A DNA stretch of 63,855 nt, the filler included, from assembly GCA_964501035.1 (NCBI GenBank). It is 4 parts of 4 records of this genome, joined end to end, with 100 filler letters (N's around TTAATTAATTAA, not from the genome) between each part and the next. Parts side by side here need not be neighbours in the genome. Positions count along the whole stretch, not along the records: positions 1 to 19,085 come from CAZCRK010000027.1; 3 more parts are not named here. The stretch is one strand, 5' to 3'. Shown here in pieces: positions 1 to 6,000 of this stretch. Position 1 is the stretch's first letter. Every line of letters starts with the position of its first letter. Made by a program: the position numbers.

Positions 1-3000
1 CAAACATATCTTTTATTATTTTTAATGATATTGAAAATCATGAAAAATCTTTAGGCGATGTGGTTTATTCTGATAAAACGAATAGCTGGACAGGTTATGA
101 TATCACATTTAATTTATCAAGTGAAGCACAATTCTCCATCTTCTATGGTTCACAAAAGGGTGGGAGAGTATGTGCCAATGGGGTATGTGCAGACCAACCA
201 GGGTTTGAAGATGGATTTAAATTAACTTATAGAAGTATTTTTTAAATTGTTACAAATTGAAATAACTTAGTGAAGATGAAATGTTGTAAATTCGTTTTCG
301 AATTAGAAGACTTTACTTCACTATAATGCAAATAACTTAAAACGGAGCGAGGAATGAAAACTATTTTAACAAGTATGATTATGATTACAATGATATGTGC
401 ATCCACATATAATGTGGGTGATACGATGTCAGAAAGTCATCAAAATTTAAGTTTTGATGTTTGTTATGGAAATTATGAAGGCGGTGATGAAGCATCATTT
501 GCAGATTTTAATGGAGAACTAAACGGTGGGAACTACAAAGTGACTTGGGTAGAATTATCTGCGAGTTGGTGTGAACCATGTTGGGATGCAATACCAATAA
601 TTGATAATATTACTGCACAGTGGGAAGATGATGAAAATGTGGCTATGGTAACAGTATTAGATGACATTGGTCAGCCATATTCGTGTACACAATGGGGTAA
701 TGCTGGCACAGTTGGCATTCCAATCATTCTTGATGATGGAAGTGGCTACACAATTTTTAATTGGTTTGAATCACAATCTGCGTTTCCTAGCAATGCATTT
801 ATTGACCATACGATGACTGTACATTATAAAACAAATAATATTGGTACTTACATAGCAAACCTAAAAATTCAAGAAATGATTGATGACTGTGACGAAGCAG
901 GTTTATGCAATAACGTAGATATGGATAGTGATGGAATTGAAAATGATGTTGATAATTGTCCCAATGATGCAAATACAGATCAAGCTGACCTTGATGAAGA
1001 TGGGTTAGGGGATGTTTGCGATGATTGTCATAATTTAAATGGTGACTTGAATGATGATACTATTCTAAATATTTTAGATATTGTAAGTGTAGTAAATATG
1101 ATTTTATCAGGTGGTGCAAATTCACCTGATTTTAATGATTGTCAAAAAGAAGATGCAGATATGGACAATAATAGTATTGTTAATATTTTAGATGTGATAC
1201 AAATTATTAACCAAATTGTTGGTATGTCACGTGTTGCAGAATTAACAGATTTAAATGCAGATGTTATATTCCACCAAGCAGGTGATGACCTAGTTGTTTC
1301 CATTGAATCAAACTCTAATATAGCAGGTATTGAATTTGCACTATTAGGTGATTATGCAAATACATTTGATTTAAAAGATAACTCACATATTACTGTTGAA
1401 TCTTCATCTATTAATGGTATTACTCACATGCTAGCATATTCTTTGTTTAATCAAGCATTTGATAGCCATACAGTTGAGTTTACAATAAAAGGCGCAGGAT
1501 ACTTAAATAGTGAAGATATAATGGTTACCGTGGGTTCACAAAATGGTGACGCATTTACACTTACACTTGCTGATGAAGATGGTATATATCAAAATGGACC
1601 TGATACATTTACACTATCAAGTGTGTATCCAAATCCATTTAATCCATCAACAGAGATAGAATTTACACTTCCATCTGATGGATATGTACGATTATCAGCA
1701 TATAATGTAATGGGACAAGAGATGTCTGTTATTTATGATGGTTTCCAATCCATTGGAACCCATTCATATACATGGAATGCATCTGAATTACCATCCGGAG
1801 TATATTATATTCGACTCTTATCTGGTAACCGAGTTGAAACTACTAAAGCTATTTTAATGAAATAAAGGGTATTATCCCTTTAAAAAGGAGCACAAAATGA
1901 ATAGACTATTTTTAATATTATTATTAGTTTGTGGGCTTTCAGCTCAAACCTATGATGTGGGCGAAATCATAAGTCAAAACCATCAAAATACTGAGTTTGA
2001 TGTTTGCTATGGTGAATATGAAAGTGATGTATTTCATTTAGCAGATTTAAATGGAGCAACAAATGGTGGTAATTACCATATCATATTTATTGATATGGCA
2101 GCTACATGGTGAGGCCCTTGCTATCAGGACATCAGTTCGATGGACTCACATGTAGAACACTGGCAAGATAATGAAAATGTACAATTTTTTGTAGCTCTAG
2201 CAGATATTGGTCAACCATATACTTGTCAACAATGGGGGGATGCAGGTCAAGTTGGTTCACCACTTATTTTAGATGATGATCCAGGTACGTTTTTTAACTG
2301 GGTACATGACTCTTGGAATGCATATCCAACTTATGCTGTAATTGACCACAATATGCGAGTGAGAGTTAAGCCTTGGACATATACAAGTAATTCAAATACC
2401 AATGAGTGCTATAATATTAATGGCTGCTCTGGTGGAAATACTGACAATTTCATTCAACAACTTGTTGATGAATGTGAAGCAGAAGGGCTCTGTGGAAATG
2501 TTGATAGTGACCAAGATGGTTTGAATGCTGATGAAGATAATTGTCCTCAGGATTATAATCCCGGTCAAGAAGATGATGATTTGGATGGTATTGGAGATGT
2601 ATGTGATGATTGCCACAACATGAATGGTGACTTAAATGATGATACTATTCTAAATATTTTAGATATTGTGAGTGTTGTTAATATGATTTTGACTGGCGGT
2701 TCAAATTCACCTGATTTTAATGATTGTGAAAAGGGTGATGCAGACTATGATGGAAATGGAATGGTTAATATTTTAGATGTGATACAAATTATTAACCAAA
2801 TTGTTGGTATGTCACGTGTTGCAGAATTAACAGATTTAAATGCAGATGTTATATTCCACCAAGCAGGTGATGACCTAGTTGTTTCCATTGAATCAAACTC
2901 TAATATAGCAGGTATTGAATTTGCACTATTAGGTGATTATGCAAATACATTTGATTTAAAAGATAACTCACATATTACTGTTGAATCTTCATCTATTAAT

Positions 3001-6000
3001 GGTATTACTCACATGCTAGCATATTCTTTGTTTAATCAAGCATTTGATAGCCATACAGTTGAGTTTACAATAAAAGGCGCAGGATACTTAAATAGTGAAG
3101 ATATAATGGTTACCGTGGGTTCACAAAATGGTGACGCATTTACACTTACACTTGCTGATGAAGATGGTATATATCAAAATGGACCTGATACATTTACACT
3201 ATCAAGTGTGTATCCAAATCCATTTAATCCATCAACAGAGATAGAATTTACACTTCCATCTGATGGATATGTACGATTATCAGCATATAATGTAATGGGA
3301 CAAGAGATGTCTGTTATTTATGATGGTTTCCAATCCATTGGAACCCATTCATATACATGGAATGCATCTGAATTACCATCCGGAGTATATTATATTCGAC
3401 TCTTATCTGGTAACCGAGTTGAAACTACTAAAGCTATTTTAATGAAGTAGATGTTTTATGTACTTGATAGTAAAAAAGGGAGATGACCATCTCCCTTTTT
3501 TATTATATCAATCTTTTGGAAACATAAAATAAGGTTTTTTGTTAGAGTATAATGAAGATTAAATTTCGAATATGATTCATCGGTTATTCATAGTATTCTT
3601 ATTAGTATTTTCATCTGTTTTATTTGCTCAATTTGAGAACGTATCTGTTCAATTAGATTTGAAGCAAATTCGAGAAAATGATAAGTATATTATTAATACA
3701 TTTGCTGATGAAGTACAGAACTACATTTTGACAAGTCCATTTGCACCAGGTGCAGAAGATTTAGGTATCAACATAAATATACATTTTGTTTTTGAATCCA
3801 TTGAAGATAATAGTAATAACCATATTGTAAATGCCCAAGTATTAATTACTAACAGTTTAGATTTAAATTATTTTACAAAAGGGGTTGAATTCCCATTTTC
3901 AAATGGGCAATCGATGTTTTATTCAATAACATTTGATCCCATAGCATCTTTTTTGGATTATTATGCTTATATATTCATTGCAAATGAATTAGATACATAT
4001 GATTATTTAGGTGGTGAACAGTACTTTTCATTAGCAGAAGAAATCGCTTCTGAAGGCAAAAGTTCTACATATTCACGAAGTTGGGATGACCGTTGGAAAA
4101 AAGTAAGAAAAATTCGCAGAAATCAACATCTACGAAGCGTTAAATATCATTACTTTACTGCTTTGGACAATTACACTTCTGAAAATATGAATATGGAAAA
4201 TTTTCAAGCATCAATCGATGAGTTTTACATCAGTTTACAAGATATTGATAACGATTATGGTCAAGATAGATTTACGATATATTTTTTAAAAGCATATACT
4301 TCAGAAGTTTGTGAGTTAGTTTCCTTTATAAACAGAAAAGAAATTTTTCATTTTTTAATTAATTTTGATGAAGAAAATAAATCTATTTATCAAAAGTATT
4401 TAAAATAGGTTATGACCCAAACAATTCGTTTTATACTTCTTTTATTTTTAGTATTTTCTTTTGTGAATTCACAAAAATCTTCCACTGAAATTCAAAAAGA
4501 TATCGACAAGCAAAACAAAGAGTTAAAACAAATTCGGAATGAAATAAACTCGATGGAAAAACAAATTATTTCCAAGACCAAAGAAGCAATTTCAGCAACT
4601 GAGATATTGATTGACATAGAGAATAAAATATCGTTAACCGAAAAGCTTATACGCTCTCTAAATCGCGAAGAAAGATACATATCTGAAAAAATATTCCATA
4701 CAGAAAATAACATAAATGAAAAAGAAAAGTATTTGGATGAACTAAGGAATCAACTCACTAAACGAATGACTCATATTTATAAAGCAGGAAGACCTTCGCC
4801 CTTGCAAACTGTTGTTCTATCTAAAAATTGGAATGAAGCCATTTATAAGGTTAAATATTTAGAAGTTCTTACAGACTATGAAACTAAAATTAGAAGTGAG
4901 ATTAGTAAAATTATAAATGAATTGCAGGATGAAAAACATCAATTAGAAAGTGAGTTAACTCGCAAAACTAATATAAAGAATGAAAAACAAATTGAAAGTT
5001 CTAATTTAGAAAATGACAAAACTACTCGAAAAAAATACATTAGTAAAATAAAAGACCAGAAAACTAAGCTTGAATCAGAAGTTAAACAGAAAAAAGAAAT
5101 GATGGCTCAAATAGAATCACTAATAAATAAGTTATTTTCTGATAAAGAAGCTTCTAAGAAAAGAGAGGAAGAATTAGCACGTATTAGAGCCATACAAAAT
5201 TTAGCAACATCAGGAAACTTTGCTAAAATGAAGGGCAAACTTCCATGGCCTGTTAGTGGAAAAATTATTTCAAAGTTTGGACTACAACGTAATCCTGAAT
5301 TAAAAACTGAAACTGAAAATTCAGGTATTGATATTGAATGTAACGCAGGTAAAAATGTAGTTTCAGTATTAGATGGGGTTGTAAGTACAATTACATTTAT
5401 ACGCGGTTATGGAAACATTATTATTGTTGATCATGGAGGAAGTTATAGTACTGTTTATGCTCACGTAGATGAAATAGTTGTACGTGAGAATGAATATGTG
5501 CAAGCTGGTAAAAATATAGCCCAAATTAGTGGATCAGGTGTATCGTATTTACATTTTGAAGTGTGGGGAAATCAGAAAAAATTAAATCCACAAGTTTGGT
5601 TAACTAGTAAATGATTTATTCTGATTTAATTCAATATAAAAATATTTGGGAAAGATTTTCACGAGCATTCTCGCAAGATAAAATGCCACATGCACTATTA
5701 TTGCATGGTCCAACCGGGGTTGGAAAAGAGGCAATCGCAATTGAACTTGCAGGATTATTAAATTGCTCGAATCTACAAAATGAATACGCATGTGGTTTGT
5801 GTAGTTCGTGCAAGAGGATTCGAACATTTCAACATGAAAATGTAAAACTTGTAGTTCCTCTTCCGAGAAATAAAAAATTAAGTAACAAAGATTCTTCACC
5901 ATTAAATGGCTTAACAACAAATTCACTTACAATGTTGCAAGAACAAATGAAATTAAAAGGTGAACAACCTTATTCAAGAATAAAATTACCACAATCCAAT

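What a model noticed while it worked through the whole genome (the two positions that open the first line are those of the whole stretch)
1897..3450. T9SS-secreted selenoprotein family: AhpC/TSA-like W-U-G-P-C domain + dockerin-like repeat + Por_Secre_tail
g00918 and g00919 are one 517-aa protein with signal peptide, an AhpC/TSA-like domain with active site W-U-G-P-C (Sec at residue 72), a dockerin-like calcium-binding segment and a type-IX-secretion C-terminal sorting domain. The neighbouring gene g00917 (C27 354-1865) is a paralogue with no stop at that place. Relatives hold 1-5 copies each, mostly with UGA, so this is an expanded family of cell-surface selenoproteins exported by the T9SS.
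Evidence so far: Read-through frame and stem after UGA. Pfam on the read-through product: AhpC-TSA 58-157 (E 2e-6), Dockerin_1 244-302 (E 1e-3, under the cut-off), Por_Secre_tail 438-514 (E 6e-9). Search of 16 genomes: 13 with matches; of 40 matches listed 34 have one in-frame TGA and 6 none, among them own C27 369-908.
(Added by a program. Inside this text positions count along the whole contig: they may not be those of the stretch shown here. "Call 12" and the like, gene names such as g00115 and contig names such as C1 are that model's own, and its searches are not shown. The text may have been shortened before it was handed on; [...] marks where a part breaks off. The agent that wrote the report below was given it as the finding of a first reader that could run no searches.)

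Follow-up and report, generated by a model that had tools for sequence, protein, structure and literature searches.

The report
Exported selenocysteine thiol-disulfide oxidoreductase, Marinimicrobia
Two gene calls are really one gene for an exported thioredoxin-like enzyme whose active site holds selenocysteine, one of a multi-copy family in marine Marinimicrobia that was catalogued from ocean metagenomes in 2008 but never linked to a cell-surface sorting tail.

Summary
Window 1897-3450 (+) is one 517-aa frame with a single in-frame TGA (2110-2112) at W-U-G-P-C. It is a selenoprotein gene: 41 of 41 TGA-bearing relatives examined have the TGA at W-U-x-x-C, where 12 relatives have Cys. A hairpin 13-21 nt after the codon occurs in 37 of 40 Sec copies against 2 of 12 Cys copies, and it shows compensatory changes. 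The genome encodes selA, selB, selD and tRNA-Sec.

The head domain is a TlpA/ResA/DsbE-type extracytoplasmic thiol-disulfide oxidoreductase, not a peroxiredoxin. Behind it lie a thrombospondin-type-3 stretch, a dockerin-like module, an unassigned beta-sandwich and a type A T9SS sorting domain.

The family is multi-copy in Marinimicrobia: 53 of 61 relatives have it, with up to 7 copies. It is not new as a selenoprotein. [quoted passage not shown]

New here are the sorting tail, the lineage, the expansion, concerted evolution of the tandem pair, and a conserved DUF6029 neighbour.

Surface export is inferred only. SprA, PorV and PorD-like genes are present, but PorL/M were not detected, and 13 of 36 complete copies lack the tail.

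The parts
1897..3450 (+). Whole selenoprotein gene (517 aa plus TAG stop). AGGAG lies at 1886-1890, 6 nt before the ATG.
1897..1947 (+). N-terminal signal-peptide-like segment MNRLFLILLLVCGLSAQ (residues 1-17)
   Evidence: Read from the sequence. Modelled as a low-confidence helix 2-12. No signal-peptide predictor was available.
1948..2487 (+). TlpA/ResA/DsbE-like thioredoxin-fold domain (residues about 18-197) with active site W71-U72-G-P-C75, invariant C110 in the GQPY[ST]CxQW motif, and near-invariant P144
   Evidence: AF2 pLDDT 92.1. Foldseek 4nmu, ResA and DsbE at E 7e-7 to 1e-5. VIA-align Z 15.3, rmsd 2.4 over 138 residues to 3gl3. Alignment A3.
2110..2112 (+). UGA read as selenocysteine (U72)
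2130..2142 (+). SECIS-like hairpin CAUC-AGUUC-GAUG, starting 17 nt after the UGA codon
2488..2625 (+). Thrombospondin-type-3-like Asp-rich Ca-binding stretch (residues 198-243: DSDQDG...DNCP...DDDLDGIGDVCDDC)
   Evidence: Pfam TSP_3 16.9 bits on the excised piece and 18.8 bits in the paralogue, both under the cut-off of 25. Matches NF045500 model positions 272-376. Equals GOS 'Unknown_3'.
2626..2805 (+). Dockerin-like module (residues 244-303), two D-x-N-x-D loop-helix repeats
   Evidence: Dockerin_1 19.6 bits, or 22.5 bits on the excised piece, against a cut-off of 22.9. Helices 254-265, 276-282 and 292-303.
2839..3180 (+). Beta-sandwich domain of no assigned family (residues 315-428)
   Evidence: AF2 strands. 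No Pfam or PDB sequence match. A cohesin+FN3 construct, 2w1n, is Foldseek rank 2, but with TMt 0.28 and rmsd 21.8.
3208..3447 (+). Type A T9SS C-terminal sorting domain (residues 438-517)
   Evidence: PF18962 36.5 bits against 27; TIGR04183 39.5 bits against 23
3478..3501 (+). GC-rich hairpin GGGAGAT-GACC-ATCTCCC followed by T6: terminator-like
   Evidence: Read from the sequence. Not listed by the consensus scan.
354..1865 (+). Tandem Cys paralogue (503 aa, W-C-E-P-C). Its last 687 nt are identical to the Sec gene's except for 2 nt.
3..245 (+). 3' end of a DUF6029 (Wzi-like outer-membrane barrel) gene, cut by the contig start. It is a conserved upstream neighbour of the family.
3572..4408 (+). 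PorD-like / DUF4835 gene (periplasmic T9SS component family)
   Evidence: PF16119 56.8 bits against 25; NF052317 55.1 bits against 170. It is adjacent only in this genus.

Best explanation
This is one gene for an exported selenoprotein.

Shown:
- The UGA at 2110-2112 sits at the N-terminal catalytic position of a thioredoxin-type W-U-G-P-C motif.
- A short hairpin lies 17 nt downstream.
- The genome has the full Sec-insertion machinery.
- The head domain has the TlpA/ResA/DsbE fold.
- The tail holds a TSP3-like stretch, a dockerin-like module, a beta-sandwich and a type A T9SS sorting domain.

Inferred:
- SelB with tRNA-Sec decodes the UGA at the hairpin.
- The Sec pathway carries the precursor across the inner membrane.
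- The sorting domain hands it to a SprA/PorV-type outer-membrane translocon.
- The selenosulfide/selenol-thiol couple U72-C75 then carries out thiol-disulfide exchange on extracytoplasmic substrates, with Sec as the attacking nucleophile.

The electron donor and the substrates are unknown. The tail appears on many other proteins of this genome, so it looks like a general display cassette, and the Sec domain is one of many heads mounted on it.
For: Sec decoding:
- 41 of 41 TGA-bearing copies in 30 relatives' loci have the TGA at W-U-x-x-C, and 12 copies have Cys there.
- The best local hairpin starts 10-21 nt after the codon in 37 of 40 Sec copies against 2 of 12 Cys copies. Mean energy is -4.9 against -2.6 kcal/mol.
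- On 24 in-register sequences the core pairs 27-39, 30-36 and 31-35 carry 5, 8 and 5 double changes. Pairs 27-39 and 30-36 have no unpaired cell; pair 31-35 has 3. 0 of 500 shuffles reach the covariation score. 68.5% of cells are paired, against 29-49% in slid registers.
- selB scores 375 bits, selA 523 bits, selD 379 bits (itself with one TGA) and tRNA-Sec 65.8 bits, all above their cut-offs.
- TGA is an ordinary stop elsewhere in the genome.

Fold: AF2 pLDDT 92.1. Foldseek and VIA-align put DsbE, ResA, CcmG and Etrx at the top, with Z 13-15. phmmer's best PDB hit is a Bacteroides thiol-disulfide oxidoreductase, 4k9z, E 4e-4.

Export:
- The CTD scores above cut-off in two libraries.
- About 30 other ORFs of the genome match the same tail.
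- SprA_N scores 52.9 bits, PorV 36 bits, there are seven C25 peptidase matches, and a PorD-like gene lies next door.
Against: - No experimental evidence for Se incorporation, expression or location. No RNA run was listed.
- The window's own hairpin is weak: a 4-bp stem with an A.C mismatch where relatives pair. Single-sequence folds are no better than shuffles (z +0.87 to -0.38).
- No Rfam family, bacterial SECIS included, reached its gathering score.
- The PorL/M motor was not found: TIGR03517, PF12081 and TIGR03513 in this genome, and PF12080 in 0 of 31 genomes of the clade. The controls of those searches do not show that the models could have detected it.
- 13 of 36 complete family copies lack the sorting domain, so surface display cannot be the rule for the whole family.
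- No reductant is known outside the outer membrane.
- The signal peptide was judged by eye.
Confidence: 0.8

Rival explanations
1. It is a true selenoprotein, but it works in the periplasm like classical TlpA/ResA/CcmG. A CcdA/DsbD-type membrane reductase keeps it reduced. The C-terminal domain does not lead to surface display in this lineage.
For: Every structural neighbour is a periplasmic or membrane-anchored reductase. The PorL/M motor genes were not detected in this genome or in 31 genomes of the clade. 13 of 36 complete copies have no CTD. A periplasmic site would solve the electron-donor problem.
Against: The CTD scores above cut-off in two libraries. It is shared with about 30 other ORFs, several over 1000 aa or carrying a C25 peptidase domain. 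SprA, PorV and PorD-like genes are present. The long TSP3, dockerin-like and beta-sandwich stalk is typical of displayed proteins. I did not search for CcdA/DsbD.
Confidence: 0.15
2. It is a peroxidase, as the Pfam name AhpC/TSA suggests: a surface selenoenzyme that removes peroxides.
For: Pfam AhpC-TSA scores 28 bits, just above its cut-off of 26. Peroxiredoxins appear lower in the structure lists at Z 10-13. Sec raises peroxidase activity in other folds (established knowledge, recalled).
Against: The P-x-x-x-T-x-x-C peroxidatic motif is absent. The motif is thioredoxin-type W-U-G-P-C. The top structural and sequence neighbours are TlpA/ResA/DsbE proteins, not peroxiredoxins. GOS already separated UxxC 'Prx-like' proteins from TxxU Prx.
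Confidence: 0.04
3. The TGA is a real stop, a sequencing error or a pseudogene lesion: either two genes or a dead gene.
For: Gene callers split it. Public records hold the 436-aa and 409-aa tails as separate 'T9SS type A sorting domain-containing protein' entries. 20 of the 150 listed representatives are short pieces whose match ends at profile position 71.
Against: The frame and the residues on both sides of the TGA are conserved across 126 of 150 listed copies in dozens of genomes. There is a Sec-specific hairpin with covariation. The Sec machinery is present.
Confidence: 0.01

Closest known systems
[quoted passage not shown] 2005, PMC1088965). [quoted passage not shown]
   Same: UxxC with Sec first. 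A W-U-x-x-C motif together with G-x-P-Y-[ST]-C-x-x-W appears in reads filed under '#Prx-like 1'. The Unknown_3 alignment of Fig. S1D is the same TSP3 plus dockerin-like segment. One read in that dataset ends in a Por_Secre_tail-like sequence.
   Different: Those were single reads with no organism, and no full-length architecture was given for them. The passages I read do not mention secretion, T9SS or Marinimicrobia: 0 hits for 'signal peptide' in all four papers, and 0 hits for 'Marinimicrobia' or 'Marinisomatota' in the 2026 review, the only paper I searched for those words. They read the CxxC of Unknown_3 as possibly redox-active. Here it sits in a TSP3-type Ca-binding repeat.
TlpA / ResA / CcmG(DsbE) / Etrx extracytoplasmic thiol-disulfide oxidoreductases (cd02966)
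   Same: Same fold: Z 13-15, rmsd 2.4-3.1 over 130-150 residues. CxxC-type motif at the N-terminus of helix 1. Exported.
   Different: Sec replaces the first Cys. The domain has a conserved N-terminal extension (Y19, G22, Q30, N52-G53, N56, G58) and an invariant third Cys (C110). It is fused to a display tail rather than a membrane anchor. Sequence scores against the ResA, DsbE and TlpA NCBIfam models are far below cut-off, at 17-23 bits.
NF045500 Omp28-related selenoprotein (GOS_C)
   Same: Also a marine selenoprotein. Its model positions 272-376 match residues 201-303 here, the TSP3 plus dockerin-like module (E 6e-15).
   Different: The head domain is not matched: 55 bits against a cut-off of 200. 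This genome has no full match to the model.
Type A CTD cargo of the Bacteroidota T9SS
   Same: C-terminal sorting domain above cut-off, N-terminal signal-like segment, and SprA, PorV and PorD-like genes in the genome.
   Different: The organism belongs to Marinimicrobia (Fidelibacterota), PorL/M were not detected, and no selenoprotein cargo is described in the library searched.

Membership tests
Bacterial selenoprotein (SelB-dependent UGA decoding) | In-frame UGA aligned with Cys in homologues at a catalytic position | tested here: met
   41 Sec and 12 Cys copies in the same column, W-[UC]-x-x-C. 126 of 150 listed matches have one TGA.
Bacterial selenoprotein (SelB-dependent UGA decoding) | Stem-loop shortly downstream of the UGA (bacterial SECIS) | tested here: met
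   A hairpin starts 10-21 nt after the codon in 37 of 40 Sec copies against 2 of 12 Cys copies. Compensatory changes occur at 3 of 5 core pairs, and 0 of 500 shuffles reach the score. The window's own stem is only 4 bp. No Rfam SECIS model reached its gathering score.
Bacterial selenoprotein (SelB-dependent UGA decoding) | selA, selB, selD and tRNA-Sec in the genome | tested here: met
   All four score above their curated cut-offs.
Bacterial selenoprotein (SelB-dependent UGA decoding) | Selenium in the protein | not testable with these tools
   Needs 75Se labelling or mass spectrometry.
TlpA/ResA/DsbE-like thiol-disulfide oxidoreductase (cd02966) | Thioredoxin fold with the TlpA-type N-terminal hairpin and central insert | tested here: met
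   Z 15.3 to 3gl3; ResA, CcmG and Etrx at Z 13-14. Foldseek E 7e-7 to 1e-5.
TlpA/ResA/DsbE-like thiol-disulfide oxidoreductase (cd02966) | CxxC-type active site and a conserved (cis-)Pro loop | tested here: met
   W71, U/C72 and C75 are invariant and P144 is near-invariant. The cis conformation itself was not checked.
TlpA/ResA/DsbE-like thiol-disulfide oxidoreductase (cd02966) | Score above a curated family model | tested here: inconclusive
   Pfam AhpC-TSA 28 bits against 26 (met). Redoxin 15 against 26.6. NCBIfam ResA 19.6 against 170. cd02966 itself is not in the libraries available.
Peroxiredoxin (AhpC/TSA in the strict sense) | Peroxidatic P-x-x-x-[TS]-x-x-C motif | tested here: not met
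   The sequence around U72 is F-I-D-M-A-A-T-W-U-G-P-C: no Pro at -7, and Thr at -2 rather than -3.
T9SS type A cargo | C-terminal type A sorting domain | tested here: met
   PF18962 36.5 bits against 27; TIGR04183 39.5 bits against 23.
T9SS type A cargo | N-terminal Sec signal peptide | tested here: inconclusive
   A basic residue, a hydrophobic run and then S-A-Q are read from the sequence, and this is conserved across the family. No predictor was available.
T9SS type A cargo | T9SS machinery in the genome | tested here: inconclusive
   Present: SprA_N, PorV, seven C25 peptidase matches and a PorD-like gene. Not found: GldM and GldL, and GldM_4th in 0 of 31 genomes of the clade. PorK, PorN, PorU as such, and PorZ were not searched.
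Dockerin (type I) | Two Ca-binding loop-helix repeats scoring above the Pfam cut-off | tested here: inconclusive
   19.6 bits in the whole protein and 22.5 bits on the excised piece, against a cut-off of 22.9. Two D-x-N-x-D...helix repeats are visible in the sequence and in the model.
Dockerin (type I) | A cohesin partner | tested here: inconclusive
   There is no sequence match of the adjacent beta-sandwich to cohesin. The only fold lead is 2w1n at rank 2, TMt 0.28.
NF045500 Omp28-related selenoprotein | Full-length match above 200 bits | tested here: not met
   55.4 bits, and only model positions 272-376 are matched.

The most novel reading that the evidence does not exclude
Marinimicrobia mount a battery of selenocysteine oxidoreductases outside the cell. 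Long forms would be anchored through the sorting tail. Short forms end in a dockerin-like module and would dock onto the beta-sandwich of the long forms, in a cohesin-dockerin-like way. Together they would form an extracellular selenium-based redox layer, for instance to open disulfides in dissolved proteins ahead of the secreted peptidases, or to handle reduced sulfur species. Export would use a T9SS-like route that works without a recognisable PorL/M motor.
Probability: 0.15. Interest if true: 0.75.

Novelty: new variant of a known kind. Interest (0 to 1): 0.45.

Why it matters
Almost all bacterial selenoproteins discussed in the reviews I read are treated as cytoplasmic or unlocalised redox enzymes. 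Here a streamlined 1.9-Mb marine genome, and dozens of its relatives, spend scarce selenium on up to seven exported Sec enzymes carrying display tails.

If the proteins really sit outside the outer membrane, that is selenium-based thiol chemistry in sea water, with an open question of where the electrons come from. The finding also assigns an abundant but anonymous class of GOS 'Prx-like' selenoprotein reads to a lineage and to a full architecture.

There are two practical points:
- Public gene calls split or truncate these genes. Surveys built on them will therefore mis-annotate the Sec head of these proteins.
- The clade has many proteins with T9SS sorting tails but no detectable PorL/M, which bears on how T9SS-like export works outside Bacteroidota.

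Tried and rejected
- Single-sequence folding of 2100-2180 and shorter pieces: no better than shuffles. The case for the hairpin rests on comparison.
- Rfam at gathering score over the whole window: only two tRNAs and no SECIS family.
- Expression: no RNA holder was listed.
- Cohesin reading of the beta-sandwich (315-428): no Pfam or PDB sequence match for 22 members or their profile. VIA-align rows covered only the head domain.
- Complex prediction, beta-sandwich of a long form against the dockerin-like module of a short form from the same relative genome (my own alignments A6 and A5): weak support. 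The score was 0.52 and the best of 3 controls 0.01. That mark was reached by 116 of 157 solved complexes and 2 of 215 mismatched pairs. At 0.60 or under it was reached by only 18 of the solved complexes and by both mismatches. The runs agree in at least 98% of contacts, and partner pLDDT is at least 72. The two domains are neighbours in the long forms, so a contact within one chain cannot be told from docking between chains.
- Q-rule (N-terminal Gln after cleavage): many members have [AS]-Q-T-Y. The abstract of PMC5837995 says the rule does not hold for the whole FCB group, so I did not use it.
- PorD adjacency as a functional link: found only in this genus, so I treat it as probably coincidental.
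- Literature searches that found nothing relevant: 'selenoprotein' + 'type IX secretion' (1 unrelated paper); 'selenoprotein' + 'Marinimicrobia' (3 papers, 2 listed, neither on this); 'Marinimicrobia' + 'type IX secretion' (1 unrelated paper).

Full report
**The observation**

Under table 11 the region holds two ORFs in the same frame: 1897-2112 (71 aa) and 2140-3450 (436 aa). Read with TGA=U, the stretch 1897-3450 gives one 517-aa product with a single U at residue 72, in the context A-A-T-W-U-G-P-C-Y. The TGA is at 2110-2112. An AGGAG lies 6 nt before the ATG, and the stop is TAG at 3448-3450.

- AhpC-TSA 58-157: E 2.3e-6, 28 bits, cut-off 26.
- Dockerin_1 244-302: E 1.1e-3, 19.6 bits, under the cut-off of 22.9.
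- Por_Secre_tail 438-514: E 6e-9.

The gene upstream, 354-1865, is a paralogue. It is 73% identical over 522 aligned columns and has W-C-E-P-C at the same place.

**Is it a selenoprotein gene?**

Four lines of evidence agree.

1. Conservation of the TGA. A search of 61 genomes (this one and 60 relatives) with the first 190 residues found matches in 53. Of the 150 matches listed, 126 carry exactly one in-frame TGA, 23 none and 1 two; 35 more were not listed. In the 30 loci fetched I located 53 copies. All 41 with a TGA read W-U-x-x-C, and the 12 without read W-C-x-x-C in the same column.

2. The hairpin.
- In 37 of 40 Sec copies the best simple hairpin starts 10-21 nt after the codon. One copy with an N was dropped.
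- Its loop usually begins with, or holds, G-U.
- Among the 12 Cys copies only 2 have any hairpin in that range, and both are weak.
- Mean energy is -4.9 against -2.6 kcal/mol.
- The stems differ in sequence between subgroups: CAUCG/CGAUG, CCAUA/UAUGG, UCAAUAA/UUAUUGA, UCCC/GGGA, CCCAU/AUGGG.
- On the 24 sequences whose hairpin is in the same register, core pairs 27-39, 30-36 and 31-35 show 5, 8 and 5 double changes. The first two have no unpaired cell; pair 31-35 has 3.
- No shuffle out of 500 reaches the observed covariation score. 68.5% of cells pair, against 29-49% in slid registers.
- I chose those 24 of the 40 by register. The other 16 have the hairpin shifted by 1 to 6 nt and would break an ungapped count.
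- The window's own hairpin, 2130-2142, is the weakest type: four pairs, with A.C where relatives pair. Its nearest relative has the same.
- Folding single sequences gave nothing above shuffles, and no Rfam family reached its gathering score.

3. Sec machinery. The genome (1.87 Mb, 167 contigs, 95.7% complete) has four components, all above their curated cut-offs:
- selB, 375 bits.
- selA, 523 bits, adjacent to selB.
- selD, 379 bits, itself with one TGA.
- tRNA-Sec, 65.8 bits.

4. No general recoding. TGA ends 141 of 776 long ORFs, and only 2 of these are followed by 100 or more open codons.

**What the parts are**

Head domain, residues about 18-197.
- It was modelled with mean pLDDT 92.1 from a 49-row alignment.
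- Foldseek against the PDB puts thiol-disulfide oxidoreductases of the TlpA/ResA/DsbE/CcmG/Etrx type first, at E 7e-7 to 1e-5.
- VIA-align on the full-length model gives Z 15.3 (rmsd 2.4, 138 residues) to a Chlorobium DsbE, and Z 13-14 to ResA, CcmG and Etrx1/2. Peroxiredoxins lie lower, at Z 10-13.
- By sequence, the best solved relative is a Bacteroides thiol-disulfide oxidoreductase at E 4e-4, aligned across ...D-[ML]-[AW]-A-T-W-C-G-P-C....
- The peroxiredoxin motif P-x-x-x-T-x-x-C is absent. 'AhpC/TSA' is therefore a label, not the function.
- Invariant in 49 sequences: W71, U/C72, C75, P107, C110, W113, P122. Near-invariant: Y19, G22, Q30, N52, G53, N56, G58 and P144.

The tail.
- Residues 198-243 are an Asp-rich stretch with the look of a thrombospondin type 3 repeat. 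TSP_3 scores under cut-off: 16.9 bits here and 18.8 in the paralogue.
- Residues 244-303 are two loop-helix repeats of dockerin type, scoring 22.5 bits on the excised piece against 22.9.
- Residues 315-428 form a beta-sandwich with no sequence family.
- Residues 438-517 are the sorting domain: TIGR04183 39.5 bits against 23.
- The full-length model has pLDDT 83.1 but pTM 0.48, so the mutual placement of the domains is not reliable.

**Who has it**

Every named record among the 62 loci found in the species-representative collection is a Marinimicrobia ('Candidatus Neomarinimicrobiota') assembly or an unnamed marine MAG. One is labelled Pelagibacter, which is probably a binning error. The protein atlas names the phylum Fidelibacterota.

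Within a 201-genome sample of the phylum, 55 genomes match at E 1e-10 or better. The match is strongest and most multi-copy in the window's own family, at up to 7 copies.

A profile search of 1.84 billion representatives found 313 clusters at E 1e-10 or better. 20 of the 150 listed are 70-120-aa pieces whose match stops at profile position 71, just before the Sec. Many others start just after it. Public records name the tails 'T9SS type A sorting domain-containing protein'. The family is therefore widely mis-called.

**History of the pair**

A maximum-likelihood tree of the 49 head domains splits, with 100/100 support, into two clades. One has 30 rows, all Sec, and holds the window's gene. The other has 12 Cys and 7 Sec rows and holds the neighbour. 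At least two Sec/Cys switches are needed. The root is a midpoint root, used for drawing only.

The last 687 nt of the two window genes are identical except for 2 nt. In the sister genome the two paralogues also share one C-terminal half, and it differs from this genome's. The tails are therefore being homogenised by gene conversion while the heads stay apart at about 48% identity.

**Export**

For:
- The sorting domain.
- A signal-like N-terminus, judged by eye.
- About 30 other ORFs in the genome with the same tail.
- SprA_N (52.9 bits), PorV (36 bits) and seven C25 peptidase matches.
- A PorD-like/DUF4835 gene directly downstream: 56.8 bits in Pfam, and 55 bits against 170 in NCBIfam. PorD is a periplasmic T9SS component that binds PorW (PMC8754138, passages read). 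The adjacency holds only in this genus.

Against:
- GldM and GldL models found nothing in this genome.
- GldM_4th found nothing in 31 genomes of the clade. The control genomes of those searches contain no known positive, so sensitivity is unproven.
- 13 of 36 complete family copies have no sorting domain, and 12 of these end right after the dockerin-like module.

**Prior knowledge**

[quoted passage not shown] - The GOS Dataset S1 holds 32 occurrences of Q-P-Y-S-C and 7 of Q-P-Y-T-C. The passages shown lie in the '#Prx-like 1' block. They include reads with W-U-x-x-C, G-x-P-Y-[ST]-C-x-x-W and the TSP3/dockerin-like tail. Another read in the file ends in a Por_Secre_tail-like sequence.
[quoted passage not shown] The Fig. 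S1D alignment shows Unknown_3 to be the TSP3 plus dockerin-like segment.
- Two reviews list the families and say their functions are uncharacterised (PMC9312934 and PMC13188914, passages).
- None of the passages I saw mentions secretion, T9SS or Marinimicrobia. My searches for those combinations found nothing relevant. I did not read these papers in full.
- NCBIfam has a curated model for another marine selenoprotein with the same tail module (NF045500). It has none that captures this head.

**Mechanism**

The most likely course has five steps:
1. SelB-dependent insertion of Sec at U72.
2. Sec-pathway export and signal-peptide cleavage.
3. Folding in the periplasm.
4. Recognition of the CTD by a SprA/PorV-type translocon.
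5. Thiol-disulfide exchange by the U72/C75 couple on extracytoplasmic targets.

Only the sequence features are shown; every step is inferred. What reduces or oxidises the enzyme outside the cell is unknown.

**Verdict**

It is a full-length, lineage-assigned, display-tailed variant of a selenoprotein class known from ocean metagenomes since 2005-2008.

Noticed in passing
window 3-245 (+); L078:258-2357; L071:204-2237: The window starts inside a DUF6029 gene; 678-700 aa in two relatives' loci (L078, L071), Pfam 60.9 and 72 bits. A passage in PMC9603273 likens DUF6029 to Wzi-type outer-membrane barrels. Its homologue lies directly upstream of the Sec/Cys gene array in 20 of the 30 relatives' loci L036-L065, so it is a conserved neighbour of unknown meaning.
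   Followed up: partly
window 354-1865 and 1897-3450: Concerted evolution. The 3' 687 nt of the two tandem genes are identical except for 2 nt, although their head domains belong to two deeply split clades. The sister genome shows the same pattern with its own version of the tail.
   Followed up: yes
window 3572-4408 (+): A PorD-like / DUF4835 gene lies right after the selenoprotein gene, behind a terminator-like hairpin at 3478-3501. The adjacency is seen only in this genus.
   Followed up: partly
whole genome G000 and 30 relatives: There are many ORFs with type A sorting tails (about 30 in G000), plus SprA and PorV. No GldL/GldM (PorL/PorM) match was found with four models. Either the motor is too diverged for the models, or the export route lacks it.
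   Followed up: partly
L040, L041, L039, L046, L050, L054, L056, L057, L058, L060, L061 (relatives): Short family members (277-355 aa) end right after the dockerin-like module and have no sorting domain. Most end in TAA or TAG, so they are not a second read-through.
   Followed up: partly
G000:C13:7047-7973 and G000:C6:11324-14550 (outside the window): selD itself has one in-frame TGA, so it is a Sec-containing SelD. selA and selB are adjacent on one contig.
   Followed up: no
window 2497-2805; NF045500: The TSP3 plus dockerin-like module is shared with NCBI's 'Omp28-related selenoprotein' model (GOS_C). A second marine selenoprotein family therefore carries the same tail module. This genome has no full member.
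   Followed up: partly
window 19086-19185, 37696-37795, 56277-56376, 61485-61584: Runs of N. Only 1-19085 belongs to the contig that holds the finding, so the window is several contigs joined.
   Followed up: no
window 4412-5614 and 5611-6789 (+): An EnvC/NlpD-like M23 peptidase with a long coiled-coil N-terminus, followed by holB (DNA polymerase III delta'). These are ordinary housekeeping neighbours.
   Followed up: no
window 2102-2155 (+): A longer pairing, CUACAUG-G-UGAG ... CUCA-CAUGUAG, encloses the UGA and the small hairpin (MFE -18.1 kcal/mol, z -0.38). It also appears in one more distant relative (L042) but not generally.
   Followed up: no
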